Shown: piece after piece, positions 3,083 to 40,190 of the stretch
Numbering within the stretch: position 1 is the stretch's first letter
How the letters are laid out: each line of letters starts with the position of its first letter
From: a virus
Lineage: Duplodnaviria > Caudoviricetes
Length of the DNA stretch: 64,000 nucleotides
IMG/VR virus record: IMGVR_UViG_3300042383_000245
Location: 1,287-65,286 of that record
Strand: one strand, 5' to 3'
Program-made: the position numbers and the translations under genes
The notes under the pieces: model-generated
Told to the model about the DNA's origin: nothing
Seen by the model: the letters and a program-made list of their open reading frames with translations, nothing else
Database searches by the model: none

Positions 3083-4335
3083 TGGAAAATAAAATCACAT
3101 TAAGGCCATATCAGCAGGCTATCGTGGAAAAAACTTGCAAATTATTGAGGGATGCCCCTCGTTTTGCATATCTTTCCATGGAGGTTAGAACCGGTAAAAC
3201 ACTTACGGCACTGTCCACACTTGACTGTGCGGGCGGTGTTGCGAGTGTGCTCTTTGTAACGAAGAAGAAAGCGATCGAAGGAATCAAGAAAGACTACAAC
3301 GCTCTGGCTCCATCGTATAAGTGCGACTTCATAAACTACGAGAGCCTGCACAAGATAGTAGACATATGCTACGACGCGATAGTATTCGACGAGGCACATG
3401 GCATGGGAGCATTTCCCAAGCCATCGCTAAGAGCGATCGAGGCTAGGCGCTTAGTACATCACTGCGACCCGTATGTAATCTTCCTGTCTGGAACGCCATC
3501 GCCCGAGTCGTACTCGCAGATGTACCACCAGATGTGGATACTTGGATACCGGTCTCCGTTTGCCGAGCCGACGTTCTACAAGTGGGCACACAGCTACGTC
3601 AAGATATGGGAGCGGATGATCAACGGTTTTCGTGTACACGACTACTCCAATGGCATCCAAGAGAAGATCATGGCAGAGGTTAAGCCATACATGATCAGCT
3701 ACACGCAGAACGAGGCTGGCTTTACTTCCAAAGTAAACGAGCACGTGCTGAAGGTCAGGATGAGCAACACCACATATATGATCGCAGACAAGCTAAAGCG
3801 TGACCTGCTGTTCGAGGGCAAGGACGACTTGATACTCGCCGACACACCGGTCAAGCTCATGCAGAAACTGCACCAGATCTACAGCGGAACTGTCATCCTA
3901 GAGTCAGGAAAGTCTGTGGTTCTAGACAAGACCAAGGCTGAGTTCATCAAGGGGCGCTTTGCAGGAAAACGCATAGCGGTCTTCTACAAATTCCAAGAGG
4001 AGCTAAAATGCTTATTGTCTGTCTTTCAAGAAGATATGACCACCGATTTAGGAAAATTTCATGCAGGTGAGTGTAACAATTTTGCTATACAAATTGTCAC
4101 GGGGCGTGAGGGCATCTCTTTGAAGGAGGCAGACTTCTTGGTCTACTACAACATCGACTTCTCCGCAACGTCTTACTGGCAGAGCAGGGATCGCCTAACT
4201 ACGATGGACAGACTGGAGAATAACGTGTACTGGATCTTCGCGGAAGACGGCATTGAGGAGAAAATTTACAAGGTTGTTCAACAAAAAAAGCCTTACACCG
4301 TGTCGCATTTTAAGAAGGATTTATTATCTTTGTAG
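3082..4335 (+). CDS. SF2 (SNF2/DEAH-like) helicase
   Basis: LRPYQ Q-motif, RTGKT Walker A, DEAH, LSGTP, GREGISL, QSRDR motif VI. Confidence 0.85.
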   Translation: MENKITLRPYQQAIVEKTCKLLRDAPRFAYLSMEVRTGKTLTALSTLDCAGGVASVLFVTKKKAIEGIKKDYNALAPSYKCDFINYESLHKIVDICYDAIVFDEAHGMGAFPKPSLRAIEARRLVHHCDPYVIFLSGTPSPESYSQMYHQMWILGYRSPFAEPTFYKWAHSYVKIWERMINGFRVHDYSNGIQEKIMAEVKPYMISYTQNEAGFTSKVNEHVLKVRMSNTTYMIADKLKRDLLFEGKDDLILADTPVKLMQKLHQIYSGTVILESGKSVVLDKTKAEFIKGRFAGKRIAVFYKFQEELKCLLSVFQEDMTTDLGKFHAGECNNFAIQIVTGREGISLKEADFLVYYNIDFSATSYWQSRDRLTTMDRLENNVYWIFAEDGIEEKIYKVVQQKKPYTVSHFKKDLLSL

Positions 4336-7588: not shown

Positions 7589-8687
7589 GCAAGAGGCTAT
7601 TGAGCTATTCAACGAGGGAAAGCTCAACAAGTCCCAGATCGCTAGGCAATTGAAGGCCAAGTACAATCTGCCGATGTCCGCAGAGACAGTGAGGAAAGAG
7701 GTTTGTAGGCAAGTAGGTAAACACAAGGCACTCGTTCAAGAGTGTGAAACGTTGGGAATACCATCAGAACAAGTAAAACATTACTGGCACAAAGGGAAAC
7801 ACTTCTCTATCAATGTCAAGGGATCTGACGCTCCGTCATACGAGGAGATCCGTGACGAGATGATCGAGCAGATGTCCAAGTACTCACCGCAGTACCAGTA
7901 CATCCACAGGAGTCAGAGCCGTGACGGACACCTATTGGTATTGGACCCAGCTGACATACACATCGGAAAGCTCGCTAGTTCTTTTGAGACCGGCGAGGAG
8001 TACAACAACCAGATCGCTGTACAGCGTGTAAAGGAAGGCGTTAAGGGCATCTTGGACAAGACCGCAGGGTTCAACATCAACAAGATCCTTTTCATCGCAG
8101 GAAACGACATCCTACACATTGACACGCCAAGAAGGACCACCACGTCTGGAACGTTCCAGGACACGGACGGCATGTGGTACGACAACTTCTTGATCGCAAA
8201 ACAGCTATACATTGAGTTATTGGAGATGTTGGTTACGGTTGCAGACGTTCACTTCTGCTTCAACCCGTCAAACCATGACTACACCAATGGTTTCTTTTTG
8301 GCCGACACGATTCAGTCTTGGTTCTCTAAGAGTGAAAACATTACCTTCGACTGCTCTATTGCACACAGAAAGTACTACACTTACGGGGACAACATGATTG
8401 GGTCAACACATGGAGATGGTGCCAAGGCACAGGACTTGCCGTTATTGATGGCACAAGAAAGTCCACAGTCATGGGCACAGACCAAGCATCGCTATGTGTA
8501 TACACACCACGTGCACCACAAGACGTCCAAGGACTACATCGGTGTTACTGTGGAGAGTCTACGTTCACCGTCTGGGACAGACAGCTGGCATGACCGAAAT
8601 GGTTACAAAGGTGCTCCCAAGGCGGTGGAGGGATTCCTCCACCACCCAGAGCACGGGCAGATCGCTAGGATCACCCACATATTCTAG
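7575..8687 (+). CDS. calcineurin-like metallophosphoesterase with N-terminal HTH
   Basis: DIHIG, GND, SNHD, HGD and HxHH metal-binding motifs; N-terminal NKSQIARQL helix-turn-helix-like segment. Confidence 0.8.
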   Translation: MKSYKQEAIELFNEGKLNKSQIARQLKAKYNLPMSAETVRKEVCRQVGKHKALVQECETLGIPSEQVKHYWHKGKHFSINVKGSDAPSYEEIRDEMIEQMSKYSPQYQYIHRSQSRDGHLLVLDPADIHIGKLASSFETGEEYNNQIAVQRVKEGVKGILDKTAGFNINKILFIAGNDILHIDTPRRTTTSGTFQDTDGMWYDNFLIAKQLYIELLEMLVTVADVHFCFNPSNHDYTNGFFLADTIQSWFSKSENITFDCSIAHRKYYTYGDNMIGSTHGDGAKAQDLPLLMAQESPQSWAQTKHRYVYTHHVHHKTSKDYIGVTVESLRSPSGTDSWHDRNGYKGAPKAVEGFLHHPEHGQIARITHIF

Positions 8688-11600
8688 TCTTCCTCTTCAA
8701 CAACCTCAGCGCGTTTCTTTATCTTCTTGTTGATCTGGCCAACAATGTAGGCCACGTCAGCAGGAAGCAAGCCGCCATAGTACCCGGTCATGATCGCAGC
8801 GTTGATACGTGCCATGTCGGCATCACCTTCAAGAATCTGCTTTTCACGCTTGGTGCCATAGCTCTCTTCTTTAAATGTGCCATCGATGGCCATGTCGTAG
8901 TAGTCGGCAAGCTCCAAGGCTTTCTCAAGCGCGATACCCTGTGTACCCAACATATCTAGGTAACCTTGGTTCTCCTTGTCGTACAGTCTGAACTTAACAC
9001 GATCGTCCTCTATGCCAAACCAGTCAGCTGGAATTTCGCTAGACAAATTTGTTTCATCAAGAATGTAGTTGATTCCCTTGCTAGCAAGTAGGTCAGCTCC
9101 AGGAATCGGCGGAACAAAGAAGTCCTTCATGAAGTTCTGCGCTGTGTATGCAGACCTGCGGAGAATCATCTTCTTCTTCTCTTCTTCCCTGTCGTCCTCG
9201 TCGTCCTCTCCAGACACGGCGGCAAGTATGTTCATTGCAACTTCCCAAAGCATTGAGTTTGCTGCGTAGCTGATTGCAGAGAACGCTCCAAGCTCTACAA
9301 GAGCACCGGCCAATGACAACGCAGCTTCCTGCCTGTCTTCAGTTGTGGTAACAGCTTTGTTTGACAAAGTGCGAACATCGGCCCAGATACGTGTCTTTTG
9401 GTTAAGCACAAACGTCATCAATGGGAAGATCGCTCTTCTCAAGAATGCCTTTGCAGGATCCTTGCTGGCCATGAACTCGCCCTGCATGTCAGAGTCACTG
9501 ATGTTCTGTTGAGAGTCAACCATCATCTGTGCATAGTCAGCAGCTTTCTTGTTTACTTCGTGGGTGTTCCAGTTGATGCCGGATGTCTTGATGCCCTCTT
9601 TCTTGAGGCCCTTCTTGTAGAAAGACAACCAAGATGAACGAGCAGTCATGATGTCTGGATACTTAAGAGTAAGCTCAAGCATCAAGTTACTGTATGCAGC
9701 AACGCCATCAACACCACGCAACAATAAGTTCTTTTCAGCCTCAACCAACTGGCGGTTGATAGACTTCAATTCACCCTGTGAGCTAATGCCACGGTTGGCG
9801 ATTGGATAACCGGTTCTGTCGATGAACGAGAAACCACCCACCATCAATGTGCCAAGGTCAAGTCTTCCAGTCTGAACGAGCGTGTTGAACAATGGAGGAA
9901 TAGACTGCTTGAACGGCTGTGACAAACTGAATAATGCCTTTGCGGTACCAAACGACGCAACTGCGTTGACCAATCTGTTAAGAGTCTTGAGTTCGCTTTG
10001 GTCTACATAACCTTGGCCCTTGGCCCTGTTTACATAAGACACCAAACGCTTCTTGTACACGTTCTTGTCTTCCTTGCTAGCGAACAGCTTGCTGAAGTCT
10101 TTAGACGTTACAAAGCCTTTCATCTGCATAACAGACCCGGCAGTCTCTACGTCAACCATGGCATTTGTCAATGCGTTCACGTTGTTAACGTCGAAGTCCA
10201 AGTTAACGATACGAGTCTTGACACCGTTCTTGTTCTGTGGCAAGTTCTTGATACGCTTGTTTTCTTTCAGCGATCCAGACTTTTCGGTGCTAACGTTCTC
10301 AAAGTTTCCAAAGAAACCAGAGTCGAAGTCTTCTTCGGCGGCTGGCGATACCTCTTTTAATTGGAATCTGTCAGGGGTAAAGTTGCTGTCTCTTGACAAC
10401 AGAGTGTTGTACACGTTTCTAGACACCTCGTCCATGCGGTCGTAGTGCTTGGACCACTCGTTCACCCACCAGTCAACAGCTTTCTTGTTAACTTCGCTAA
10501 CATTTGCACGTACCTCTTTGGCGTTATTAGCGTCTTTTAGGATCTTGTTGTAGACCTTCTCTACCACTTCGCCCTTCTTTATTTCGGCGTCTGTGCTGTT
10601 TTCTGGGTCTTTTAGCGCCTGTATTGTTTCCTCAATGAGTGATTTGCGCCTATTAAACTCGTCTTGCGCCTGGAATTCATCTCCAATAACTGTTCTTGAA
10701 ACAAATGCAAGCATTCCGCGTTCAACAACATTCTCGCTTGACAAGAAACCTTTAACCTTTGAGAACGTAGCAACATACTCTTTAACAGCCTTCTCGACGA
10801 TCTTGATGGCCTTTGCCTTACCGTTTGACACTCCGGTCACTCCAGATGCTTCGGATACTTCTAAGGCCCTGCTAGTGCTTCCCCACATCAACTTATTAAG
10901 CATTGGCAACGACGCGATCTGTTCTGCCCAAATTCTACCTGCTCCTTTAGAGAAGTACTTCTTAAACGGAATAGACTTGAACCCTTTCTTTGCAAGCTTC
11001 TCTGCGTTGAGAGATCCTTCGTACAGATCAACCATGCCAACAATACCAGAGGTAACGCCATTGGCAATGAAGTTGTTCGCATACTCAAGTGCCTTAACGG
11101 CCTCTGCAAGTGATAAGTTATCAAGGTCCATCTTGGCAAGCTTGACGATGGCCGACTTTTCGTCTTGTGTTAGATCGATCGGATCGCCAGTGAATGGGTC
11201 TTCGCCTGTTCTTGCGATCTGAAGTAGAATTGGAGATACCTCGTCCATCATTTGCTTGACAGCGGCCTTCGCCTCTTTTGCTTTGGCTTCTGACTCGTCT
11301 TCGTTCTCTTCGATGGCGGCAACTACTTTTTTGATTTCGTTGATGGTCATCTTACTGTCCAACACACCAGCATCCACCAAGTCTTGGTACTTGCTCAAAA
11401 TTTCATTCTTGATCTGCTCCCTCTGTGCTTGAATCTCCTTGTCGATGTAAGAAACCATGTCGGTCATGTTTACCAATGAACGCATCTTAACGTCACCTGT
11501 CTTACGAGACACAGACTTAAGGATTTGCTCAGCATTGTTGAGATAGTCGTCGATGTTTTCTACACGCGATGGATCGATCTCTGCAAAAGTCTTTGCAAGC

Positions 11601-14600
11601 TTTGAGCTTTCGGCTTGGTTGTCAGGATTCTTTGCAGCCTTTCTGATGGTCTTACGAAGCTTTGTAGCCTCTTTCACCTTGTCAGCATACTCAGCGCTCT
11701 GGAATACGTTGGCCATGTAGTCAACGAACCTGTCACGCATGTCTGGATTCAAGATGTTCATGCGGTCGTATCTAGCCAAAATGGTGCTTGCTTGCTTGGC
11801 AGAAATAACACCACGGCCAGCCATGCCACGAAGTGTATTTGAGATTTGCATTCTTAACTGCTTAACAAACGCAACGGCGTCTTTAGCAGCCTTGGCCTCT
11901 AGTTTGATTTGGTCCTTAAGGGCAGTCTTCTCATTTACGGTCACCTTCTTGGTGTCTTTGATCTGACCTAGGATCTTGTCTACAGACGGAGCTACTTTAA
12001 ATTTCTCTCCGCGAAGCTTTACAAAGTCACGGATGATCTGCTCACGCTGTGAGTCGTCGGCTCTTTCGTAAACAGCTGACTTCTGAATGTAGCCAACTGC
12101 ATTTGCTGTGGCCTGGTTGTATGAGCCAGTACGGTTCATGGTCTTTTCCAATATGCCTTCAACCTCACCCATCATACGCTCGTATCCAGGGATGGTGTTC
12201 ACCACAACCTTCTGAGACTTGGTAGTAACAGTAGGCTTTGCCTTCTCGATCAGCATGATCTTGTTGCTTGTATATGGCGACAACGTGAACTTACCACTAT
12301 CGAATCTTCCGAAGTCGTTTGGAGATTCATATGAAAGAGTATTGCCATCAACAGCTACAACAGTGGCGTATCTTCCATACAAGAATATCTCGTCACCTAC
12401 CTCGTATGTAGGTTCTGGGATCTGCTTGAAGCCAGTGTACTCTGCCTCAGGCTTTAAAGCCTTAGTAGTCTGTGCACGGTAACTCTTAGGTCCTCCCCAG
12501 TTGGTGACTAGCATGTCGTAACCGTTCTCTGCGGCGACTTTGGTCACCCAAGCAGCCGAGTTGTTTGCGTCAAACGCATACTTTGTTGGCCTGTCTTCGT
12601 TACCACGGTTTCTGTACGCTTGGAATCTTTGTCTTGCCTCTTCCTCGAAACCTTCTGGATCGTGAGATACGGTTCCTTTTTCTGTGCTTCCGTAGAAGTA
12701 TACCTTGTCTTTTGGAACTAAAACTGTGTGTGGAACATTCCCAACACCACTTTCTACTTGACCTTGCTTTGTATAGTACATCGCAACACCACCAACTGCA
12801 GAAATAGCGGATACCTCTTCGCGACTCGTGAAGTTCTTCTTAGAACCAGACATCGGCTTGATGGTGTCTCTAAGCTCGTCAGAGTAGTGAACGAACACGT
12901 AGTTGCCTTTACCATCGTCGGTCAATACCTCGTCAACAACTGTTGGTACGTTCTTCTGTGAGCGTGACTTAACTACTATCTCTTTGTCAGAAGCAATACG
13001 GCCCATTCCCATTCCCATTTGGGCTAATCCCAACTTGGCATTTGACGCCTTCTCTCCAGACATAGTTGTAATAGCCTCAACAGCTTTTGGCCTGTAGTTG
13101 AACACCTTTAATACTGGTGGCTTACCGCTCTTTGTTACAATAGAAAAAGGATAGCTTGGATGTTGGTCGTCTTTTTTTACTACAACGTCTTCATCCACCT
13201 CAACAATGGCGTATGCATTTCCAGAGTCCAATCCAATCAACAAGCGCTCGGTTAAAACTGTACCTATTTGCTGGCGAATTCCGCCCTTAGAGAACTGAAT
13301 ATTTTTAGTAGCCCCTAAAGCTTTTTGTATTTCTTTAATGTTTTTATTAGCAGATTCTAGCTTACCAATTTCATTTACTAGCGTGCTAAAAAAATCTCCA
13401 CGCTTAGCAAATGTAGAATCAGACACATTCATGAACTTGTCTTCAATGTCTTTTTGAATTTGCTTAGCAGAATTATTTCCAGAAAAGTCAATATTATAGG
13501 CTTTCCCTGCAGAAGTTAAAGCTTTTCTAAAGTCAGAAGTAGAAATAAGATTGTCAAATACAAGCTCCTCCAAAATACGCATAGCGGCTTTTACTCCTTG
13601 AACAGAGCTAATCATTTTGTCTTGGCTTCCACGAACCAAAACCATACGCCCAATACCGTCTGTAGATTCTTTGCGTGATTTATTTATGTAGTTGGCAAGA
13701 GTTTTAGCGCTGTTTTGTTTTCCAGATGCCCATACATTACCAAACTTAAGTACATAATAAATCCCTCCATTCCCCTCCATGATCTTCTTCCCTTTGTAAT
13801 TAACGTTTCCTACAAGCAAATTATCTGGTTGGTGAGTTGCCACTGGCTGACCAGCCGCTTCATCTATAGATGCATTTTGAACCACCAACTTGCGATCAAC
13901 CAAGTCTTGGAACGCGGCGTCGTCCTCAAAGTATTGAATATCAAAGTCGCCTATCTTCTGGCTTCTATTTGAAAATACTTTTTTGGTATCTTTAATTTCC
14001 TGAGTGTTTTTTTCCCTAAAGAAAGTAGACACATCCTCGCCTTTTGCCACCTTGTTAGAGATGGTAATCATGAAACCAAGGATATCGTCTGGAGTTGCTT
14101 CGTCCAAGAACTGCTTCTTGCCGGTGAACAACTGAGCGAACTTGTTGATCACGTCTCCGATCTTCTGTAGCAATGACTTCTGCTTGGCGTCTAGTGATCC
14201 TTTCTTAAATCCATCAGCAACCAACATGCCACCGAGCTCAGCCATGTACTCAGAGTACTTGACGTCTTCGTAGCCCCTTTGGTTAGAGAACTTAGTTAAA
14301 GCGTCTGCGATCTCTCCATAGCCATTCAATCGTAGCTGACGGTCTATCTCATCTCTGAACTCTTTAAACTTCGCCTGATCGTCTCCAAATGCGTCATTGA
14401 GCATGGTTTCCCAAATCTCGTGTCCAATGGTAATAGTGTCAGCCTGCGACTTGTCAAGAACGATGGCGAATGGCTTACCGTTGACGAATACCGTTTGACC
14501 GCGAGTCTCTGTTGTAAATCCTTCCGCCACGTCAGCAGCTCGATCTGGAGCGACACCAGACAATGCCTCGGCGATCTGAAGCTGGGCGTCTTCTGTGTTC

Positions 14601-17044
14601 TCGGCTACGATGATCTTAAGATCAGGAGCAACGACTTTTAAAGACTGGGCAGAGTTGGCTACGGCTTGGTCAAATTCAGATTGTTGCTGTACAGGGTATG
14701 CTTCTTGTACTTGTGGTATAAATTGATCCCTATAAGCCATAGCTTGATCGTAGTCGTCAAACTTTTGCTCTTGAATATCAAGTTTGTTTTCGGGGTCATA
14801 AACCATGGCCACAACATCTGGTGTACCATGCTTCTCCTTGTTCCACCCCTCTGGAGCGTACTCCTCGTTGAACGGAACTCTAGAAACCACTCTAAATCCG
14901 GCTTTCTCGTAGATGGGCGTAAGGTAGTTGTCGAAGTTATCCAACTTGATACCTCCAGCATCAATAGCTTTTTGAAGAAGTTTTTGTGCAACTCCTTTTG
15001 CTTTTGATCCGATCTTCTTGAATAGACCCTTGATGTCTCCTTCTTTTGAAACCACAACCCCCCCATCTTCGTCTGAAATAACAGTGCCTTCTTTTGCCGC
15101 TTCTTCGGTTACCGAATCAACAGACCAGTATTGCTCTGGATCAGACTGTTTGGTTTCTTGTAAGTCAGCAATGTACTGAGCTACTTCTTCTTGGGCTTGA
15201 CCTTCTTCGGTAACGACTTCAGGTTCTGCTTGGGGTTCTCCTTGCGCCACTTCTCCGCTAACTGCGGCTCCTGGCTGTACAGGTACTTCACTTGTTGTTT
15301 GCTCTTGAATGGCATATGTTTTTAGCTTGTTAAGTTTTTGTGCTAATACTTGACCGAGAATCTTTTTTTCTTCTGGACTCTCAGCTGCGTTGTACTCATC
15401 TTTAACTTGTCCTACCTCATCCAATGCGTCGTAGGCTTCTTGTTTTTTATCATCTGGCAACGAGTCGAACACAGGGAAGAACTTCTCGTATGCAGAGTAC
15501 TTCTTGTCTCTTTCTTCGGCAATTCTTTTGTCGTACTCGTCCTTGGCAGTTTGACTAACAGCCTCTTCCTTTAACTTTCTGTATTGATTGATTTTTTTAG
15601 AAGAGTCAGCAATTTCTGGATTTACAATTGTAGCAATATCGCTCTTCAACTTCAGGTTGGCATCAGTCTCAATACGCTTTATGTACTTCTTCTCTGCTGC
15701 TGTCTTTGCCTTTTCTCCAAGATAATTGATCGCCGCTGGTGGAATAGCGCTAACAGGCTCAGCAATCATTTCATATGCAATTTGACGAGCGTCTAATTTG
15801 CCATCAGCAATTAATTGAGCAGTAGTTTCTCCGGCACCTCCAAGAGCTGCCTGTACTGCTGTTTCTTTTGCGCCAGCCTTAATCACTTCTTTTGTGGTCG
15901 CCTTGGCCGCTGTCTTAAACAACTTACCTGCAAGACCACCAGACACTGCGTCAAAAACAGCAACTGGAACACCACGTTTAAGAGCGTAAGACTTGGCCTC
16001 GCTAATTTTTTCTGGATTTGAAAATGCTTCTTTTAATTGATCTTCACTTGTAATGTCAACTCCAGCATCTCTTAGAGCTCCCATTAATGAGCTTGAATAT
16101 TCCAACGCCAAAGAAGTTGCTCCTGCATATCCAGCGGCAGCCCCCGGTGCTGCACCAAGGCCCAGTATTACAGAGCCCGTAACGGCTCCAGTAGCAGCCC
16201 CGGCCGCACCAGCCTCGTATGCGGCAGACATAGATATAATAGAAGATGCTAGTACGTTTGGTAGGTTCTTTAAAAATCCAACAACCCCACCTTCGTCTTC
16301 TATAGCGTTATCTTGTATCAGCTTGTTTAAGCTAGCTATTCTTTCAAAATCTATTTCGTCAATATTGTCATTCCGTCCAAGCTTGGCAATTTCGTCAGCC
16401 AATGTTCCAGCGGCTACAGACCCGTTTACAATTCTTTCAATATAGCTTGGAGCTGTTGGGCCTTCTACGGCCGCTAATACTTCTTTCGCATACTTCTTTG
16501 TTTCTGGCTTTTCTGTAATAATCCCAGCGGTAAACGCGTCACCTCCTGGAGACTTCTTAGTGAGAATTTCGCCAGCACGCTTTACGTCTTGTGCGAATGG
16601 GTTTTCTTGCACAGCTGGCGCATCTCCAATCACGGTTGTCTCTTGGACGGCGCCTCTGAAAGGCATCATCATCTCAAGATCCTTTTCGGTCAATTGTGCA
16701 GCAGGTGCTGCAGGGGCTACAGGTTGAGCAGGTTTACCCTTGACGTCATACCTTTTTCTTGCAGAAGGCGCCGGCGCCCCATCTGGGCCCATCGCTCCAG
16801 TAGCCGATGAAGTAGCTTGCTGACCTTGTTGAGAAGGAGAAGCCGATTCTTTTTTTTTTACTTGTGTAAAGTACTTGCCCTTAAAGTCGTTAAAAGATTT
16901 TGTGTACAAACCTTGGTCATACACGACTTGATACAACTTAGACATATTTTGCTCGTCAGAATATTTACTAACGAATTCATCGTATGATTTTGTGTAAAGA
17001 CCATTGTCTTTAACTACTGAATAAAGGTTTTCTATTTCTGGCAT
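8684..17044 (-). CDS. giant (2786 aa) internal virion / ejection protein, large polyvalent protein-like
   Basis: last gene of the morphogenesis operon after two other internal-protein-like genes; Gly/Ala hydrophobic N-terminal region; GNAT-like, zincin-like and ART-like segments by motif. Confidence 0.7.
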   Translation of the reverse strand: MPEIENLYSVVKDNGLYTKSYDEFVSKYSDEQNMSKLYQVVYDQGLYTKSFNDFKGKYFTQVKKKESASPSQQGQQATSSATGAMGPDGAPAPSARKRYDVKGKPAQPVAPAAPAAQLTEKDLEMMMPFRGAVQETTVIGDAPAVQENPFAQDVKRAGEILTKKSPGGDAFTAGIITEKPETKKYAKEVLAAVEGPTAPSYIERIVNGSVAAGTLADEIAKLGRNDNIDEIDFERIASLNKLIQDNAIEDEGGVVGFLKNLPNVLASSIISMSAAYEAGAAGAATGAVTGSVILGLGAAPGAAAGYAGATSLALEYSSSLMGALRDAGVDITSEDQLKEAFSNPEKISEAKSYALKRGVPVAVFDAVSGGLAGKLFKTAAKATTKEVIKAGAKETAVQAALGGAGETTAQLIADGKLDARQIAYEMIAEPVSAIPPAAINYLGEKAKTAAEKKYIKRIETDANLKLKSDIATIVNPEIADSSKKINQYRKLKEEAVSQTAKDEYDKRIAEERDKKYSAYEKFFPVFDSLPDDKKQEAYDALDEVGQVKDEYNAAESPEEKKILGQVLAQKLNKLKTYAIQEQTTSEVPVQPGAAVSGEVAQGEPQAEPEVVTEEGQAQEEVAQYIADLQETKQSDPEQYWSVDSVTEEAAKEGTVISDEDGGVVVSKEGDIKGLFKKIGSKAKGVAQKLLQKAIDAGGIKLDNFDNYLTPIYEKAGFRVVSRVPFNEEYAPEGWNKEKHGTPDVVAMVYDPENKLDIQEQKFDDYDQAMAYRDQFIPQVQEAYPVQQQSEFDQAVANSAQSLKVVAPDLKIIVAENTEDAQLQIAEALSGVAPDRAADVAEGFTTETRGQTVFVNGKPFAIVLDKSQADTITIGHEIWETMLNDAFGDDQAKFKEFRDEIDRQLRLNGYGEIADALTKFSNQRGYEDVKYSEYMAELGGMLVADGFKKGSLDAKQKSLLQKIGDVINKFAQLFTGKKQFLDEATPDDILGFMITISNKVAKGEDVSTFFREKNTQEIKDTKKVFSNRSQKIGDFDIQYFEDDAAFQDLVDRKLVVQNASIDEAAGQPVATHQPDNLLVGNVNYKGKKIMEGNGGIYYVLKFGNVWASGKQNSAKTLANYINKSRKESTDGIGRMVLVRGSQDKMISSVQGVKAAMRILEELVFDNLISTSDFRKALTSAGKAYNIDFSGNNSAKQIQKDIEDKFMNVSDSTFAKRGDFFSTLVNEIGKLESANKNIKEIQKALGATKNIQFSKGGIRQQIGTVLTERLLIGLDSGNAYAIVEVDEDVVVKKDDQHPSYPFSIVTKSGKPPVLKVFNYRPKAVEAITTMSGEKASNAKLGLAQMGMGMGRIASDKEIVVKSRSQKNVPTVVDEVLTDDGKGNYVFVHYSDELRDTIKPMSGSKKNFTSREEVSAISAVGGVAMYYTKQGQVESGVGNVPHTVLVPKDKVYFYGSTEKGTVSHDPEGFEEEARQRFQAYRNRGNEDRPTKYAFDANNSAAWVTKVAAENGYDMLVTNWGGPKSYRAQTTKALKPEAEYTGFKQIPEPTYEVGDEIFLYGRYATVVAVDGNTLSYESPNDFGRFDSGKFTLSPYTSNKIMLIEKAKPTVTTKSQKVVVNTIPGYERMMGEVEGILEKTMNRTGSYNQATANAVGYIQKSAVYERADDSQREQIIRDFVKLRGEKFKVAPSVDKILGQIKDTKKVTVNEKTALKDQIKLEAKAAKDAVAFVKQLRMQISNTLRGMAGRGVISAKQASTILARYDRMNILNPDMRDRFVDYMANVFQSAEYADKVKEATKLRKTIRKAAKNPDNQAESSKLAKTFAEIDPSRVENIDDYLNNAEQILKSVSRKTGDVKMRSLVNMTDMVSYIDKEIQAQREQIKNEILSKYQDLVDAGVLDSKMTINEIKKVVAAIEENEDESEAKAKEAKAAVKQMMDEVSPILLQIARTGEDPFTGDPIDLTQDEKSAIVKLAKMDLDNLSLAEAVKALEYANNFIANGVTSGIVGMVDLYEGSLNAEKLAKKGFKSIPFKKYFSKGAGRIWAEQIASLPMLNKLMWGSTSRALEVSEASGVTGVSNGKAKAIKIVEKAVKEYVATFSKVKGFLSSENVVERGMLAFVSRTVIGDEFQAQDEFNRRKSLIEETIQALKDPENSTDAEIKKGEVVEKVYNKILKDANNAKEVRANVSEVNKKAVDWWVNEWSKHYDRMDEVSRNVYNTLLSRDSNFTPDRFQLKEVSPAAEEDFDSGFFGNFENVSTEKSGSLKENKRIKNLPQNKNGVKTRIVNLDFDVNNVNALTNAMVDVETAGSVMQMKGFVTSKDFSKLFASKEDKNVYKKRLVSYVNRAKGQGYVDQSELKTLNRLVNAVASFGTAKALFSLSQPFKQSIPPLFNTLVQTGRLDLGTLMVGGFSFIDRTGYPIANRGISSQGELKSINRQLVEAEKNLLLRGVDGVAAYSNLMLELTLKYPDIMTARSSWLSFYKKGLKKEGIKTSGINWNTHEVNKKAADYAQMMVDSQQNISDSDMQGEFMASKDPAKAFLRRAIFPLMTFVLNQKTRIWADVRTLSNKAVTTTEDRQEAALSLAGALVELGAFSAISYAANSMLWEVAMNILAAVSGEDDEDDREEEKKKMILRRSAYTAQNFMKDFFVPPIPGADLLASKGINYILDETNLSSEIPADWFGIEDDRVKFRLYDKENQGYLDMLGTQGIALEKALELADYYDMAIDGTFKEESYGTKREKQILEGDADMARINAAIMTGYYGGLLPADVAYIVGQINKKIKKRAEVVEEED
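15181..15315 (-). CDS. nested out-of-frame small basic protein (MPFKSKQQVKYLYSQEPQLAEKWRKENPKQNLKSLPKKVKPKKK)
   Basis: complete ATG..TAG ORF in an alternative frame of the giant gene; A-rich upstream sequence; resembles free-standing phage MPFKS..Q..Y....P..A..W proteins. Confidence 0.55.
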   Translation of the reverse strand: MPFKSKQQVKYLYSQEPQLAEKWRKENPKQNLKSLPKKVKPKKK

Positions 17045-17045
17045 A

Positions 17046-18428
17046 TTAGTCTAAGACCCCTCTTTTAGTGGTGTTTTGATTGTTAAAAAATGCTTGTTCA
17101 TAGCTTATTGATTGCCCGGGAGTGAGAGTCGCATTAAGCAAATCGTTAATTAACCTTTTTGCATCGTCTCCAGAACGCGTCAATGGTTCCCTAATAGTTT
17201 TCGTCTTTCCTGTTTTAGGGTCAACAAAATCATATTCTACATCAACTTCAATTCCCTTTAGTGGATTTCTATTTTTGTCCGTACCTTCTAAAGGCTTAAC
17301 AGATACAACTTGAACGTCTTTGTTGTTTATTTTTAATGGCTGGTTGAGTATATATTGTCTGTATGAGTCTGGATCATTGTATATTCTATTGACCAGCTCT
17401 CTTCTGTTGTTTACGTTGACATCTCCTCCGCCCCCACTTCCTGATCCAGAAGTGCTACTTGACGCTCTTTCGACCGGTCTTGGCTGTTCTTTTTCTACGT
17501 CAACTCTAGAGTCAACCAATCTATCCAACACGGCTCTTGCCTCGTCTTCTTGAGCCTTGGTTAGCCTTGGAGTTACGATACCATTTGGTCCTGCAACTAA
17601 CTGTATAGCCTTGCCTCCGGCTGCTTCGATTTCTTTCTTCTGCTGCGGTGTCTCGTAGAACTCGTATCCACCAACATAGTCAGCCAAAATACTAGCAGCT
17701 CCGCGTGGGCTCTGCATTAACGACTTGGTGAAGTTTGCCTTTGCTTTCTGATACTCGTTAGCATCTTTTAAAATAGGAGACGTAGTCCATATTCCGTTGA
17801 CATACTTAGACGTTTCTCCAAGTCCCTTAGTAAACCTTTCTACTTCAGAAATAACATCTAATCTTTCTGGCGTCTGGTTCTCTGGAATAAGCATTGACTT
17901 GAAGTCTACAACCATTCCGGTATCTGGATCTGTCATTACAACACCATTGGTGCTAGGATCTACAACCAATTGCTTGTTAGCAACGTCAGCAAGCTTTGAC
18001 TGTTTGTCTAAAAAGAACTCGCCAAGCTTTGACGCTTTTGGGTCGTTCAAGTACTCAATCTGCTTTGCGATGATGTCGTTGTAAGACTTTGAGAATTCAC
18101 CCAAGTACTTCCAGTCTTCAGACATTCTGCCTACACGAGCCTTGTACTCTGTTGGTGTGATCTGTCCGTTCATCAACTGCTTCTTCAAGTCCAACGTGGT
18201 GCTACGAACGCGATCGGCTCCGTTAAGGATCAATTCGTTGAAACTACCAGATTGACCGGGCTTGTATTCTTTAGACGCAGTTACTAGATCGTCTGCTGAT
18301 TTCTCGAGAGATTCTCTTTGTTTCTGTCTGTCTGTTTCAATGGCGTCAATATCCGTGATGGCACCCTGTGCGATCTTGAGCCAATTTACTGGTTCGGGCC
18401 TGCCTTGGTATCCTAAGTATTCTGCCAT
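17046..18428 (-). CDS. putative internal virion (ejection) protein
   Basis: 460 aa helical protein in the ejection-protein position. Confidence 0.55.
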   Translation of the reverse strand: MAEYLGYQGRPEPVNWLKIAQGAITDIDAIETDRQKQRESLEKSADDLVTASKEYKPGQSGSFNELILNGADRVRSTTLDLKKQLMNGQITPTEYKARVGRMSEDWKYLGEFSKSYNDIIAKQIEYLNDPKASKLGEFFLDKQSKLADVANKQLVVDPSTNGVVMTDPDTGMVVDFKSMLIPENQTPERLDVISEVERFTKGLGETSKYVNGIWTTSPILKDANEYQKAKANFTKSLMQSPRGAASILADYVGGYEFYETPQQKKEIEAAGGKAIQLVAGPNGIVTPRLTKAQEDEARAVLDRLVDSRVDVEKEQPRPVERASSSTSGSGSGGGGDVNVNNRRELVNRIYNDPDSYRQYILNQPLKINNKDVQVVSVKPLEGTDKNRNPLKGIEVDVEYDFVDPKTGKTKTIREPLTRSGDDAKRLINDLLNATLTPGQSISYEQAFFNNQNTTKRGVLD

Positions 18429-19605: not shown

Positions 19606-20355
19606 TTATGGGTAACTTTTGAATACCTGTGAAGAAATTGCAAATAATTCTACAGCAGTAGAGCTAGTATTCTCAAGCAGTACACTCATGAAGTATCCGC
19701 GTGCACCGTAAGACTCTGCAACTGCATTTTTGACAAACACAATAAAGTTTCCAGCAACCGGAACAGTACCACCAACTACCATGTTAATGGTAACGGATGT
19801 TGCGTTGTGTGCAGTCACGACACCAGAGATCGTCAGTCCTCCAACAGCTCCAATGTATATGATGTCGCCAATGCTGACGGTGGTTCCAATATCGAACGTG
19901 AAGTTTATTCTGTAGTTGCTAGCAGAGATGAGCGTTACTGAAGATGCAGATCCAATGCCCTGAGTAGACATGGCTTTTAAGTCTACGGTATCTGGGTTTC
20001 TACGAATGTATGTAAAGTAGTCTCCTTCCTTCAACTCAAAGTACGACGCTTCCATTACTCCAGAGTTTAGGTCTGTGGTAATCGTAGCCTTCCATGGAGA
20101 GTCAGTCTCGCAGGCAAGCGTCTTGAACATCTTAGACTCGCTTGGCGCATCGTTGAAAACCACAGTTACGGTAGATGGCGCAGACGCGGCACCGTACCAG
20201 CTATTGCGTGTTGCATTGGTGTTGTGCTTCCACAACTCACCAGACTTGAACGTGTACAAAAAGTTGTTCATGTTTGTCATCCACTCAGGATAGTAGGAGT
20301 GGAAAGATGTCCACCCCTCGAGCATTGGTGAGTATGTAAGAGTATAGTTAGCCAT
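19606..20355 (-). CDS. tail structural protein
   Basis: GWTSFHSYYPE...KMFKTL...YGARG motifs resembling the C-terminal part of podoviral tail stabilization proteins. Confidence 0.6.
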   Translation of the reverse strand: MANYTLTYSPMLEGWTSFHSYYPEWMTNMNNFLYTFKSGELWKHNTNATRNSWYGAASAPSTVTVVFNDAPSESKMFKTLACETDSPWKATITTDLNSGVMEASYFELKEGDYFTYIRRNPDTVDLKAMSTQGIGSASSVTLISASNYRINFTFDIGTTVSIGDIIYIGAVGGLTISGVVTAHNATSVTINMVVGGTVPVAGNFIVFVKNAVAESYGARGYFMSVLLENTSSTAVELFAISSQVFKSYP

Positions 20356-30457: not shown

Positions 30458-31579
30458 TTATCTGTTACTCATTTTTATCTTGAGCCCACTTCCGTGGTCA
30501 GAGTCCAAAGCAACAACTTTGAAACCAGTTGTAGGCGTGAGCTGTGGTGCCGACCGAACGTCCATCTGGATATTCTTTGACTCCTTCGCTACACTGTCTA
30601 CTGCTGCAGCTCTGCCTTGCTCATAAAAGTGCTTGGCAAAACTGTCTGGGTTCATCGCTACTGCGATAGCTCTGTGGTATGCAGCTGGGTCTTTAATGAA
30701 TCCTTTCTCGTCTAAGAAAGAACCAATAAACTTGCTTACGTCAGATTGAGCCTTCTTCAGTTGTTCTGTGTTGCCGGGTTTAAACGAGAGAGACTTGTCG
30801 TCGATCTTAAATTCAAAACCTTTGAACTGATCGCTGAAAAGCTCGTCTGTCTTCTTAGCAAAGAACTCTGAGCGCTCTAACTGAGCCTTCTGCACTTCCT
30901 CGGATTCTTGAGCATATCTTTTGAAGTCCTCGTACATACTTTTCTCTTCGTCAGAAACTAAGCCACCCCTTGACTCAACGGGCACCTTGTACTGTTCCTT
31001 CAGCTTGTTGAAGTAGTCCTTGGCCTTTGCAAGATCTTTTTTCATTGCTAGCTTCTTTTTCTTAACGTCTTTTGGATCATCAAGGTCTTCATCAAATTCG
31101 TACCGAGTCTCGATTTCGTACTTTACGTCTTCGTCGTCATACTCTGGGTTATCCTGTTTGATGAATTCAGCTAGCAGTTGATTTGCAGGAACGTCATCGT
31201 AGTTCTTATTCAACTGAATAAAATCTTCGATTCCTCGTCCGGTCTCTTTCTTGTATTTCAAGAACGCAGACACGTCTTCTGGCAGTTCCTCCGCCTCTTT
31301 TCTCGCCTCGAACAAATCGTCAACTGAGTTGATTTCTTTGTTGTACCGATTTTTTAAATATGTAAGAACGTCTGTATCTTCTAGCTCCTTGGCTTGCGCC
31401 TCAGTGCTTTCGATCTTTTCTGTTGTCCCGTCAGCTGCCACTACTGTGGTTTCTGCCGGGACTTCTTCTGACGACAAGCCGTGCTTTTCGTCATGCTCTT
31501 TTAGAAGTTGCTCTTCGATTTCTTGAACAGACTTCTGTTCCTCGAAGGCTACTTCCTTTACTTTGAATTCATTTTCCAT
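30458..31579 (-). CDS. capsid scaffolding protein
   Basis: highly acidic helical protein between portal and capsid genes. Confidence 0.7.
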   Translation of the reverse strand: MENEFKVKEVAFEEQKSVQEIEEQLLKEHDEKHGLSSEEVPAETTVVAADGTTEKIESTEAQAKELEDTDVLTYLKNRYNKEINSVDDLFEARKEAEELPEDVSAFLKYKKETGRGIEDFIQLNKNYDDVPANQLLAEFIKQDNPEYDDEDVKYEIETRYEFDEDLDDPKDVKKKKLAMKKDLAKAKDYFNKLKEQYKVPVESRGGLVSDEEKSMYEDFKRYAQESEEVQKAQLERSEFFAKKTDELFSDQFKGFEFKIDDKSLSFKPGNTEQLKKAQSDVSKFIGSFLDEKGFIKDPAAYHRAIAVAMNPDSFAKHFYEQGRAAAVDSVAKESKNIQMDVRSAPQLTPTTGFKVVALDSDHGSGLKIKMSNR

Positions 31580-39620: not shown

Positions 39621-40190
39621 TCAATACACCCTAACATAGATGTTCTGACCGTTTCCTGTGTGGTCAATTATTCCAGATGATGCACTTGCACCGGGCGCTA
39701 CTTGATACGGAGAGCCACCGAAGTCTGTCCACGTACTTCCGTTGTATGAGTACTCTACGGTTACTGTAGGGAACGGAGGAGGACCGGGCGTTGCGATAAA
39801 GTTAACCTGTAGGGTTATCTGGTCCCAGTGTGGAACACCGCCACCACCCTGTGTTGTGTTTGGTGGTACTCCGTTGACCGTAAAAGGAGATACAGCAGGA
39901 TTTAGTCCTGGAGTACCTATACCCATCGATCTAATAACTTGAAAGTTGCAACTTATAAGGCTTGCTGGTACTGATGACTGAACTTGGAAAGAGTATCCCA
40001 CCTTCGCCTCTAGGTTGTAGAATCCGCTCATTTTGATGGTTGTTTGGTTCACGTAGTCATATGCATCAGCGTATCCATCAAACAGCCTGTAGTCGTTGAA
40101 CTGCGAGAACAGGGCAGGACTTGGAGTTGTGATGTCCAAGTCCGTTATCAAGTCCCCGATGAGTATTACCCCAGATGTTGGCGTGCTCAT
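39621..40190 (-). CDS. putative tail fibre-associated structural protein
   Basis: overlaps the stop of the tail fibre gene; Pro/Gly/Ser-rich beta protein. Confidence 0.5.
   Translation of the reverse strand: MSTPTSGVILIGDLITDLDITTPSPALFSQFNDYRLFDGYADAYDYVNQTTIKMSGFYNLEAKVGYSFQVQSSVPASLISCNFQVIRSMGIGTPGLNPAVSPFTVNGVPPNTTQGGGGVPHWDQITLQVNFIATPGPPPFPTVTVEYSYNGSTWTDFGGSPYQVAPGASASSGIIDHTGNGQNIYVRVY

What the first reader, a model, noticed from the sequence alone, without database searches (positions are those of the whole stretch)
15181..15315. Complete small gene nested out of frame inside the giant virion gene
Seen: the acidic linker AIQEQTTSEVPVQPGAAVSGEVAQGEPQAEPEVVTEEGQAQEE of the 2786-aa protein reads, in another frame on the same strand, as ATG...TAG encoding MPFKSKQQVKYLYSQEPQLAEKWRKENPKQNLKSLPKKVKPKKK. 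It is preceded by an A-rich start context (AAGCTAAAAACAT) like other starts in this genome. From recall, not a search: this resembles free-standing small basic phage proteins beginning MPFKS..Q..Y....P..A..W. Inference: true dual coding, where a DNA-binding peptide gene is overprinted by or inserted into a disordered linker.
Basis: partly seen in the sequence, partly recalled or inferred. Interest (0 to 1): 0.72.

Follow-up and report, generated by a model that had tools for sequence, protein, structure and literature searches.

The report
Small conserved gene nested in giant phage gene
A 44-residue basic protein gene sits, in a different reading frame, inside a 2786-residue phage virion gene; comparison with relatives shows that natural selection preserves the small hidden gene more strongly than the giant gene's own reading of the same DNA.

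Summary
Window 15181..15315 (-) is an ATG..TAG ORF of 44 aa in the +1 frame of the 2786-aa ORF 8684..17044 (-).

The ORF alone is not unusual. What it encodes is.
- It scores 60.6 bits against an HMM built only from free-standing small phage genes. None of 2000 synonymous-codon shuffles of the host frame exceeds 32 bits.
- All 83 copies examined are intact. So are 12 of 12 relatives found through a different part of the giant gene.
- Substitutions follow the small ORF's codon phase.
- Host-frame synonymous change is suppressed: 1/29 in the module against 105/202 in the flanks, window versus its nearest relative.
- It is the genome's only copy of the family.

The family is very large (4460 cluster representatives) and uncharacterised. 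It occurs free beside portal or terminase genes, as an in-frame N-terminal domain, or nested in two unrelated host genes.

The small frame is the older one. The giant gene reads through it as an acidic spacer, and mosaic breakpoints of the giant gene fall at the small ORF's borders.

Translation and function were not shown directly. I judge this a real embedded gene, a new variant of a known kind, and unannotated in the two GenBank records inspected.

The parts
15181..15315 (-). Nested small gene: 44 codons plus TAG, encoding a basic MPFKS-family protein. Start ATG at 15315-15313, stop TAG at 15183-15181.
   Evidence: ORF and peptide; 60.6 bits against an HMM of free-standing homologues; 0 of 2000 host-synonymous shuffles above 31.9 bits; substitutions follow this frame's codon phase; only copy in the 65,286-base genome. 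AlphaFold2 pLDDT 88, helices 6-15 and 17-26, extended basic tail.
15316..15345 (-). Start context of the nested gene: A-rich, weakly folded, no Shine-Dalgarno motif. An alt-frame TAA lies two codons upstream of the ATG.
   Evidence: A fraction 0.55 in -20..-1; only 1 of the 21 other long-ORF starts in the window has an SD-like motif; 3.8% of 20-nt windows and 2.9% of the 68 out-of-frame ATGs in the giant gene are as A-rich upstream. MFE of -30..+20 is -3.1 kcal/mol against a mean of -7.7 (sd 3.4); 11.8% of out-of-frame ATGs fold as weakly; alt frame open for only 2 codons upstream of the ATG.
15179..15316 (-). Host-frame read-through of the same DNA: the acidic, Pro/Gln/Glu/Ala/Val-rich spacer (about residues 577-622) of the giant protein.
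   Evidence: sequence; host-frame aa identity 52% against 80% for the nested frame; nested copies have 0 stops in this frame, against a mean of 5.6 in free-standing copies, with T depleted and G enriched at the small gene's third codon positions.
8684..17044 (-). Host gene: 2786-aa giant protein, presumed virion-internal or structural.
   Evidence: 29% identity over about 900 aa (E 2e-75) to the Elemovirus protein that GenBank annotates as 'structural protein', which carries the same nested ORF upstream. It lies in the late module after the terminase, portal, capsid and muzzle-like genes.
30458..31579 (-). Context only: 373-aa gene between the portal and major capsid genes (scaffold position). 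Its orthologues in related phages are the other host of the nested gene; here it lacks the module.
   Evidence: 36.6% identity over 284 aa (E 1e-53) to the L032 host gene, aligned only from residue 89 or 103 onward; no second family match in the genome.

Best explanation
Window 15181..15315 (-) is a genuine protein-coding gene embedded out of frame (+1) in the giant virion gene. It encodes a 44-aa, strongly basic protein with a predicted two-helix hairpin and a Lys-rich tail. The protein belongs to a very large, uncharacterised phage family defined by an N-terminal MPFKS..Q motif; the nearest library model is phrog_1375, of unknown function. Shown by comparison: the small frame is the one under the stronger purifying selection. 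The giant gene reads the same DNA as an acidic spacer that is kept open, and non-basic, by the choice of the small gene's third codon positions. Inferred history: the small gene is the older frame. In other phages it is a free gene in the head/packaging module (typically just after the portal gene) or an in-frame N-terminal domain. In this lineage it has been engulfed by neighbouring genes: in some relatives by the N-terminal part of the scaffold-position gene, and here by the giant gene. The two halves of the giant gene still recombine as separate cassettes exactly at the small gene's borders. Inferred mechanism of expression: independent initiation at the internal ATG on the late mRNA, in an A-rich, weakly folded, SD-less context like the genome's other starts. 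Frameshifting from the host frame is unlikely, because the small frame is closed by a stop a few codons upstream. Inferred function (about 40%): a head-assembly or packaging-associated basic peptide that binds nucleic acid or an inner-capsid/portal-vertex partner, made together with head-interior proteins. The confidence given applies to the dual-coding claim, not to the function.
For: Homology: an HMM built from 16 free-standing copies scores the window ORF at 60.6 bits, and all 59 nested copies at 41.6-76.0 bits. The library search gave 4460 cluster representatives at E<=1e-3 and 836 at E<=1e-10; the motif starts at residue 1 in 127 of the top 150.

Not a by-product of the host frame: for each of 7 loci, 0 of 2000 host-synonymous shuffles reach the observed score. 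Shuffle maxima were 20-37 bits; observed scores were 41.6-71.7 bits.

Intactness: 83 of 83 copies run M..stop at 41-69 aa. So do 12 of 12 relatives retrieved through the giant protein's C-terminal domain; a 13th locus has no upstream DNA.

Codon phase: across 22 unique sequences and 36 codons, entropy is 0.843 at small-frame position 3, 0.444 at position 1 and 0.239 at position 2. Amino-acid identity is 80% in the small frame against 52% in the host frame. In 11 pairs, each locus used once, flanks differ at host positions 1/2/3 by 0.269/0.184/0.448 per site, but the module by 0.211/0.145/0.134.

Synonymous suppression: window against L020, 105/202 in flanks against 1/29 in the module, Fisher p 1.3e-7. 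Pooled over 69 non-independent pairs, 35.7% against 11.4%.

Conservation island: flanks of the giant proteins are unalignable while the module aligns. Median identity is 0.20 upstream, 0.43 in the module and 0.20 downstream over 630 pairs. Metagenome contigs of other phages pile up only on 15171-15304 and diverge at 15315/15322 and at 15187-15200.

Sole copy: there is one match in this 100%-complete genome. Each of 10 further records has one strong match, 6 of them at least 90% complete.

Dual constraint: T at small-frame position 3 is 3-4% in nested copies against 24% in free copies. Host-frame stops number 0 against a mean of 5.6.

Start: A-rich, weakly folded context. Relatives L022, L025 and L072 carry AGGAGG-type motifs 5-7 nt upstream of the nested ATG, inside the giant gene. 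The small frame is closed a median of 4 codons upstream in the 59 nested copies.

Head-module link: free copies lie next to the portal (L052, L061, L063, L064), between portal and scaffold (L064), next to the large terminase (L034, L062, L066), or two genes upstream of the major head protein (L067). The second host gene lies between the portal and the capsid gene.

Mosaic borders: nucleotide identity jumps at the ATG (window-L020: 0.31 to 0.89) or drops after the ORF's 3' end (L004-L018, L010-L031, L003-L028, L006-L007).
Against: There is no direct evidence of translation or of the peptide; no ribosome profiling or proteomics was available, and contigs cannot show RNA ends. No sigma-70-type promoter or terminator lies nearby, which is uninformative for a Bacteroidota-type host. 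The window ORF's own match to phrog_1375 is weak (E 0.034), and the L001/L002 copies hit no PHROG. There is no Pfam or NCBIfam family, and no structural relative in the PDB, so the function is inferred from context only. Most comparison loci were found with the small protein itself, so broken or lost copies would be under-sampled. Only one independent retrieval was done, and it reached close relatives only (78-100% identity). The family tree rests on 51 columns and is poorly resolved. One library protein (P0175) has the small ORF in frame at the C-terminus of a giant N-terminal part. Other ways of expression therefore exist in some phages, or that contig carries an indel error.
Confidence: 0.85

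Rival explanations
1. Silent relic. The small gene was engulfed when neighbouring genes fused and is no longer translated; its conservation reflects recent common descent or the needs of the host spacer.
For: No expression data exist. The host frame is clearly under selection to stay open and non-basic. A short truncated MPFKSK.. start, stopping after 10 codons, lies 396 nt upstream of the intact copy in L002, so such fragments do occur.
Against: 83 of 83 and 12 of 12 copies are intact across lineages whose giant proteins share only about 29% identity in their best-conserved part. Substitutions follow the small frame's phase, and the host frame's third positions are the least variable sites. 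It is the only copy in 7 of 7 genomes that are at least 90% complete. The ATG is kept in all 59 nested copies.
Confidence: 0.05
2. A conserved nucleic-acid element (recombination linker, RNA structure or binding site) rather than a second protein. The open frame would be incidental.
For: Mosaic breakpoints of the giant gene coincide with the module's borders. Many co-occurring phages share just this 120-130 nt. Suppressed synonymous change alone does not distinguish RNA or DNA constraint from protein constraint.
Against: Variation has three-base periodicity in the small frame's phase, with position 3 > 1 > 2. Of the 18 variable places that one search lists within the ORF, 11/6/1 fall at positions 3/1/2 by my arithmetic; 87 further differences were not shown. 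Free-standing and in-frame N-terminal homologues conserve the amino-acid sequence with different codons. AlphaFold2 gives a confident fold (pLDDT 88). The recombination role can be a consequence of protein-level conservation.
Confidence: 0.04
3. The small frame is reached by ribosomal frameshifting from the giant frame. This would give a truncated N-terminal product with a basic tail, not a separate 44-aa protein.
For: The window has the run CTA AAA ACA just upstream. One library protein, P0175 (1075 aa), ends with the small domain in frame.
Against: The small frame is closed a median of 4 codons upstream (35 of 59 copies within 5 codons, several at 0-1 codon), with no shared slippery site. 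Met1 and the MPFKS N-terminus are conserved as in free-standing proteins, where they start the protein. Some relatives have SD motifs placed for the nested ATG.
Confidence: 0.03
4. Chance ORF or by-product: a Lys-rich alternative frame is the automatic shadow of a Glu-rich linker.
For: The basic composition of the +1 frame of GAA/GAG-rich sequence is automatic. 8% of synonymous shuffles still give an ATG-started open frame. Many other alternative-frame ORFs lie nearby.
Against: 0 of 2000 shuffles approach the family score. There is homology to free genes whose corresponding frame holds 2-10 stops. See also all the conservation tests above.
Confidence: 0.01

Closest known systems
Lambda Rz/Rz1-type embedded spanin genes
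   Same: A small gene lies wholly embedded in the +1 frame of a larger phage gene. Across phages the same pair of functions is found embedded or separate. Basis: established knowledge, recalled. Papers PMC6139136 and PMC5295617 were seen only as a search listing and the start of the abstract.
   Different: No sequence or functional relation. Here the embedded gene is not a lysis lipoprotein but a basic head-module protein. It is embedded in two unrelated host genes. The embedded frame appears to be the older one.
Overprinted genes of small phages (phiX174 E within D, B within A)
   Same: One DNA stretch carries two reading frames, one of them inside a morphogenesis gene. Suppressed synonymous change is the diagnostic signature. 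Basis: recalled. Reviews PMC8227390 and PMC3494269 were seen only as a listing and the start of the abstract.
   Different: Classical overprinting creates a new gene inside an old one in a size-limited genome. Here a widespread, older small gene is read through by a derived host frame, in a 65-kb dsDNA phage that is not obviously short of space.
phrog_1375 (PHROGs family of unknown function) and the wider MPFKS..Q family
   Same: The N-terminal 30-45 residues match. The window ORF scores E 0.034. 8 of 10 longer relatives score E 7e-6 to 4.5e-3 over their residues 3-28 to 3-42. My own HMM of free copies gives 60.6 bits.
   Different: The PHROG profile is 70 positions long and matches only from its position 17. 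The window copy is nested rather than free. No function is recorded.
In-frame N-terminal-domain members of the same family (for example P0148 980 aa, P0101 498 aa, P0043 258 aa)
   Same: The same domain at residue 1. 70 of the top 150 representatives are longer than 90 aa.
   Different: There the domain is fused in frame to varied C-terminal parts: Gly-rich segments, a P-loop-like region, DUF5661. Here it is a separate frame inside the host.
Conserved boundary or linker sequences at mosaic junctions of phage genomes
   Same: A short conserved stretch is flanked by exchangeable, unrelated segments. Similarity between relatives switches on or off at its edges. Basis for the concept: recalled.
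   Different: Here the junction lies inside one continuous 2786-codon ORF, and the conserved stretch is itself a protein-coding gene in another frame.

Membership tests
MPFKS..Q small basic phage protein family (nearest model phrog_1375) | Significant profile match to free-standing members over the whole length | tested here: met
   60.6 bits, E 7e-21 (Z=1), against an HMM of 16 free-standing copies. 84.3 bits against the A1 profile in the genome search.
MPFKS..Q small basic phage protein family (nearest model phrog_1375) | Conserved positions: M1 P2 F3 K4 S5, Q8, P17, A20, L35-P36, and a basic C-terminal tail | tested here: met
   All are present in the window peptide. The invariant and near-invariant columns are listed.
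MPFKS..Q small basic phage protein family (nearest model phrog_1375) | Match to the curated PHROG profile itself | tested here: inconclusive
   phrog_1375 E 0.034, 15.6 bits. The L001/L002 copies gave no hit. 8 of 10 longer relatives hit it.
Embedded (out-of-frame overlapping) protein-coding gene | Complete start-to-stop ORF in another frame inside a bona fide gene | tested here: met
   The host ORF is homologous to an annotated structural protein.
Embedded (out-of-frame overlapping) protein-coding gene | The ORF is kept intact in relatives, including relatives found independently of it | tested here: met
   83 of 83 copies. 12 of 12 evaluable loci found through the giant protein's C-terminal domain.
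Embedded (out-of-frame overlapping) protein-coding gene | Purifying selection in the embedded frame, with suppressed synonymous change in the host frame | tested here: met
Embedded (out-of-frame overlapping) protein-coding gene | Direct evidence of translation | not testable with these tools
   Only contigs of DNA runs were laid. No ribosome profiling or proteomics was available.
Programmed-frameshift product | Alternative frame open upstream to a conserved slippery site | tested here: not met
   A stop lies a median of 4 codons upstream of the ATG in the 59 nested copies, and there is no shared slippery motif.
Any Pfam or NCBIfam family (I recalled small basic DUF-type families as a lead) | Profile match | tested here: not met
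   No Pfam hit at E<=10 for the window ORF or for L001/L002. No Pfam hit covers the N-terminal domain in 10 longer relatives. There is no NCBIfam hit on the domain.

The most novel reading that the evidence does not exclude
'Reverse overprinting' with a double role. An ancient small head-module gene has repeatedly been swallowed by its neighbours; the family tree needs at least 4 changes of state on well-supported branches. The giant virion ORF would then be a translational fusion of exchangeable cassettes, stitched together by reading the small gene in another frame as an acidic spacer. Because the small gene stays under protein-level selection, it is also the only conserved patch of DNA in the giant gene. 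It would thereby serve as the homology site at which phages swap the N- and C-terminal halves of their giant genes. A further, untested possibility is that the basic peptide and the acidic spacer encoded by the same DNA bind each other.
Probability: 0.45. Interest if true: 0.85.

Novelty: new variant of a known kind. Interest (0 to 1): 0.76.

Why it matters
Embedded genes are routinely discarded by gene callers. The two GenBank records I inspected (a Flavobacterium Elemovirus phage and MW202828) annotate only the giant CDS at this place. The features that tblastn reported under the listed hits in the other records were likewise the large structural CDS.

This case has unusually clean comparative evidence, and it reverses the usual direction of overprinting: the nested frame is the old, widely distributed one, and the host's reading is the derived one. 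It also shows that a 2786-codon ORF still evolves as separate cassettes joined at a hidden gene. That bears on how the giant, fast-evolving internal virion proteins of crAss-like and related Bacteroidota podophages are built and shuffled.

The family itself is one of the larger uncharacterised small-protein families of tailed phages (4460 representatives at 50% identity, tied to portal, terminase and scaffold genes). Cultured Flavobacterium phages that carry the nested form make it directly testable.

Tried and rejected
- DNA similarity: blastn of 14000-17100 against GenBank phages found nothing.
- Curated families: Pfam and NCBIfam have no family for the domain.
- Structure searches: Foldseek against the PDB gave 0 matches. 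Against BFVD, no match reached E<=0.001; the top-ranked were uncharacterised small phage proteins at 36-51% identity. The profile search of PDB sequences gave only summed weak repeats on designed propeller proteins (Cake, Scone, Bagel), with no single stretch significant. I treat these as artefacts.
- Complex prediction: small protein with the window's portal (alignments A2, A3) returned 'no answer' with a score of 0.00. This is no evidence either way.
- Promoters and terminators: the sigma-70 promoter/terminator scan of 14900-15900 found none.
- tblastn with a T7-like free copy found only 7 Streptomyces phage records at E about 4e-3. I did not follow these up.
- Overlapping starts: for L061 and L066 I considered that a downstream gene might start inside the small gene, giving an 'overlapped' architecture. 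The translations before the likely true starts look non-coding, so I make no claim.
- Regex false positive: window 1464-1664 (-) (MSPLRS...) is unrelated, Arg/Ser-rich sequence.
- L042, L078 and L081 were counted as 'nested' by the script but are doubtful. They are GC-rich loci or have a neighbouring radical-SAM-like gene that probably starts downstream. I kept them out of the giant and scaffold-position groups.
- Literature: 'MPFKSK' (match anywhere) gave 0 papers. Two searches on overlapping or embedded phage genes and one on the Elemovirus phages listed nothing describing this gene. I read only listings and the starts of abstracts, and supplements are closed. This is therefore a limited basis for 'not in print'.

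Full report
**1. The observation**

The window holds an ATG..TAG ORF of 44 codons at 15181..15315 on the minus strand. It lies inside the 2786-codon ORF 8684..17044 on the same strand. The offset is +1, since 17044-15315 = 1729 = 3x576+1.

An ORF of this size is not remarkable here. One search lists 24 other alternative-frame ORFs of 30-135 aa within 2.5 kb. When I kept the host protein and redrew its codons from the gene's own usage, 162 of 2000 shuffles still had an ATG and an open frame of 44 codons or more. A Lys-rich +1 frame is also the automatic shadow of a Glu-rich stretch. The case therefore rests on what the ORF encodes and how it evolves.

**2. The same nested ORF in distant phages**

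A tblastn of the peptide against GenBank phages gave only weak hits (E 0.9-2). They fell inside giant genes of 68 Flavobacterium Elemovirus records and of MW202828. In the two records I opened, the match is again a complete ATG..stop ORF, of 43 and 42 aa. It again lies in the +1 frame of a giant CDS of more than 2900 codons, and that CDS is the only feature annotated there. There is no DNA-level similarity to the window.

The window's giant protein is homologous to the Elemovirus 'structural protein' downstream of the module: 29% identity over about 900 aa, E 2e-75. The nested ORF therefore sits at a corresponding place in orthologous genes. At 63% identity it is better conserved than its host.

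**3. A large family with free-standing members**

- The word-indexed protein search found 23 small proteins of 41-54 aa, 19 of them at E<=1e-3.
- A scan of IMG/VR found 294 confirmed stretches, of which the best 80 were fetched.
- All 83 copies (80 loci, L001, L002 and the window) are intact M..stop ORFs of 41-69 aa. Four of them carry small N-terminal variants.
- By a simple rule (another frame open for at least 150 codons across the small ORF), 59 copies are nested and always +1 to the host. Of these, 36 lie in giant ORFs, 20 lie in a 385-440-aa gene, and 3 are doubtful. The other 24 are free-standing, with stops in every other frame or only short ORFs around them.
- An HMM built only from 16 clean free-standing copies scores the window ORF at 60.6 bits (E 7e-21 for one sequence) and all 59 nested copies at 41.6-76.0 bits.
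- The exhaustive profile search of 1.84 billion representatives found 4460 proteins at E<=1e-3 and 836 at E<=1e-10. Among the best 150, 80 are 90 aa or shorter and 70 are longer. The motif starts at residue 1 in 127. The module is therefore also an in-frame N-terminal domain of larger proteins.
- The only library family that touches it is phrog_1375, of unknown function. It scores E 0.034 for the window ORF and hits 8 of 10 longer relatives. Pfam and NCBIfam have nothing.

**4. Which frame is selected**

Four tests agree that selection acts mainly on the small frame.

(a) Codon shuffling. Redrawing host-frame codons destroys the match. For each of 7 loci, 0 of 2000 shuffles reached the observed score. 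For the window the maximum was 31.9 bits against the observed 60.6.

(b) Codon phase. In 22 unique sequences of the giant-gene group, over 36 ungapped codons, the positional entropies are:

| Position | Entropy |
|---|---|
| Host position 1 (small-frame position 3) | 0.843 |
| Host position 2 (small-frame position 1) | 0.444 |
| Host position 3 (small-frame position 2) | 0.239 |

Amino-acid identity is 80% in the small frame and 52% in the host frame. The host's wobble position is the least variable site.

(c) Phase switch against the flanks. In 11 pairs of relatives with alignable flanks, each locus used once, differences per site at host positions 1/2/3 are:

| Region | Codons | Pos 1 | Pos 2 | Pos 3 |
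|---|---|---|---|---|
| Flanks | 3121 | 0.269 | 0.184 | 0.448 |
| Module | 530 | 0.211 | 0.145 | 0.134 |

The flanks show the ordinary pattern; the module does not.

(d) Synonymous suppression. Among codons whose host amino acid is identical, synonymous differences are 105/202 in the flanks and 1/29 in the module for the window against its nearest relative L020 (Fisher p 1.3e-7). For L036-L046 they are 109/280 against 1/48, and for L006-L007 65/164 against 0/38. Pooled over 69 non-independent pairs they are 35.7% against 11.4%.

**5. The host frame is not wholly passive**

Nested copies have no stop in the host frame, whereas free copies carry 2-10 (mean 5.6) in the corresponding frame. At the small gene's third positions, T falls from 24% in free copies to 3-4% in nested ones, A falls from 37% to 21-22%, and G rises from 29% to 54-56%, at similar overall G+C. 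The host reading thereby becomes acidic (D+E 21-34%, K+R 5-7%) rather than basic. Both frames are constrained: the small one for its sequence, the host one for openness and charge.

**6. A test not biased by the small ORF**

Most loci were found with the small protein itself, so I also searched with a conserved 181-aa stretch from far downstream in the giant protein. Of the 13 loci found, 12 include the upstream region. All 12 carry an intact 42-45-aa nested ORF in the +1 frame of the same giant ORF of 1740-3394 open codons, at distances of 1.7-3.6 kb from the probe. The 13th begins at the probe itself. These are close relatives (78-100% identity in the probe), so the test is narrow.

**7. Only copy in the genome**

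The window is nearly the whole of a 65,286-base virus record rated 100% complete, and the nested ORF is its only family match at E<=10. Ten further records that carry nested copies each have one strong match. Six of them are at least 90% complete. One 59%-complete record has an extra weak match at E 0.0024.

**8. Conservation island and mosaic junction**

When 150 host-frame residues on each side are aligned across 24 giant genes, the flanks are essentially unalignable and the module is the only conserved block. Over 630 pairs, median identity is 0.20 upstream, 0.43 in the module and 0.20 downstream.

Seven pairs are related on one side only, for example the window and L020 (0.20 upstream, 0.73 downstream) and L010-L031 (0.89 upstream, 0.16 downstream). 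Four pairs are related on both sides. One of those four is an identical pair, and the other three are the pairs of a single trio (L036, L046, L048).

Nucleotide profiles put the switch at the ORF's edges. For the window against L020, identity jumps from 0.31 to 0.89 at the ATG. For L004-L018, L010-L031, L003-L028 and L006-L007 it drops just after the 3' end.

Public metagenome contigs give an independent view. At 80% or greater likeness, contigs pile up only on 15171-15304 (depth 210-238 in run X7 against about 19-40 in the bins 14300-15170). Their unlike ends begin at 15315/15322 on one side and at 15187-15200 on the other. Of the 18 variable places that one search lists inside the ORF, 11, 6 and 1 fall at small-frame positions 3, 1 and 2 by my arithmetic; 87 further differences were not shown.

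**9. Genomic context and history**

The phage has a late module of large terminase, portal, a 373-aa gene, a capsid-type virion protein, a protein with a crAss muzzle C-terminal domain, and three giant ORFs. SD-like motifs occur at only 1 of 21 long-ORF starts, which fits a Bacteroidota-type host.

The second host gene (385-440 aa) lies between the portal and the capsid gene in related phages (portal 52%, capsid protein 50% identical to the window's). It is the orthologue of the window's 373-aa gene, which lacks the module. Its only similarity to the giant genes is the module.

Free copies lie in head/packaging modules:

| Locus | Arrangement |
|---|---|
| L064 | portal, small gene, scaffold |
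| L061, L063 | T7-type portal, small gene |
| L052 | portal upstream |
| L066 | large terminase, small gene |
| L062 | small gene, large terminase |
| L034 | large terminase upstream |
| L067 | 635-aa gene, small gene, 267-aa gene, major head protein |

L068/L080 and L082 show the same ORF layouts as L063 and L062, but their neighbours were not annotated.

A maximum-likelihood tree of the small proteins (51 columns, weakly resolved) needs 6 changes of the 'giant-nested' label, at least 4 of them forced by well-supported branches. It places one scaffold-position copy (L011) with the giant-nested clade.

My reading, as inference: the small gene is the ancestral frame, and it has been engulfed more than once or has moved between hosts as a two-frame cassette. 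The giant ORF behaves in evolution as cassette A, small gene and cassette B.

**10. Expression and function (inferred)**

- The small frame is closed by a stop a median of 4 codons upstream of the ATG (35 of 59 copies within 5 codons), with no shared slippery site. Entry by frameshifting is therefore unlikely.
- The window's nested ATG has 55% A in the 20 nt upstream. Only 3.8% of windows in the gene, and 2.9% of its 68 out-of-frame ATGs, reach that level.
- The local fold is weak: -3.1 kcal/mol against a mean of -7.7 (sd 3.4) for the gene's out-of-frame ATGs, and 11.8% of those ATGs fold as weakly.
- In L022, L025 and L072 an AGGAGG-type motif lies 5-7 nt upstream of the nested ATG, inside the giant gene.
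- AlphaFold2 with 82 sequences predicts two helices (6-15 and 17-26) and an extended basic tail, with mean pLDDT 88. No solved structure resembles it.

I commit to independent internal initiation, and to a head-assembly or packaging-associated role for a basic peptide that binds nucleic acid or an inner-capsid or portal-vertex partner. I hold the functional part at about 40%, because it rests on gene neighbourhood, composition and fold only.

**11. Comparison with what is known, and verdict**

Embedded genes are known in phages, for example lambda Rz1 in Rz and phiX174 E in D. I recalled these; the related papers were seen only as listings and the starts of abstracts. This case works the same way at the level of coding, and it passes the comparative membership tests for an embedded gene. 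Only direct evidence of translation is missing.

It differs in three respects:
- the nested frame is the old, widely distributed one;
- the same module sits in two unrelated host genes and also occurs free or fused in frame;
- it marks the recombination junction inside a giant ORF.

I rate it a real feature and a new variant of a known kind, with high confidence in the dual coding and moderate-to-low confidence in the function.

Noticed in passing
L002 3187-3219 (Flavobacterium phage elemoE_10-3D): A second MPFKSK.. start lies 396 nt upstream of the intact nested ORF and stops after 10 codons. The host frame there repeats DAVQKQ. It may be a decayed duplicate of the module or just a short repeat.
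   Followed up: partly
Protein P0175 (1075 aa): A giant-gene N-terminal part (24.7% identical to L008's over 579 aligned residues) ends with the small protein in frame at its C-terminus. It is either a natural in-frame variant or an indel error in that contig. The contig could not be fetched.
   Followed up: partly
window 19606-20355 (-), 20373-26249 (-), 40187-47554 (-): A 249-aa protein carries the crAss muzzle C-terminal domain (PF25729, E 8e-15). The genome has two further giant ORFs, of 1958 and 2455 aa. Overall it is a crAss-like virion module in a freshwater phage.
   Followed up: partly
L022, L025, L072 (30 nt upstream of the nested ATG at 3001, 3001 and 1428): Canonical AGGAGG/AAGGAG motifs lie 5-7 nt upstream of the nested start codon, inside the giant ORF. 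The window and most relatives have A-rich SD-less contexts instead.
   Followed up: partly
L001 6001-6132 and L002 3583-3711: These two nested copies have two Cys (..KACY...WDC..) where the other copies have aromatic or aliphatic residues, and they score lowest against the family HMM (41.6 and 42.6 bits). This is a possible disulfide or metal-site variant.
   Followed up: no
Proteins P0030 and P0136: In some in-frame fusions the MPFKS domain is followed by DUF5661 (PF18905). Others carry Gly-rich, membrane-like segments or a P-loop-like region. The N-terminal module is joined to very varied partners.
   Followed up: no
G001:C1:419-526 (record of L008): A weak second match to the family profile (E 0.0024, 15 bits) lies inside a 149-aa open frame.
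   Followed up: no
window 14300-16300 in runs X3-X7: The phage or close strains occur in lake and freshwater metagenomes from several studies. In run X7 about ten times more contig depth maps to the 130-nt module than to its flanks, so many co-occurring phages share just this piece.
   Followed up: partly
window: starts of 21 long ORFs: Only 1 of 21 has an SD-like motif, and the upstream regions are A/T-rich. This suggests a Bacteroidota-type host, in line with the Flavobacterium hosts of the cultured relatives.
   Followed up: no
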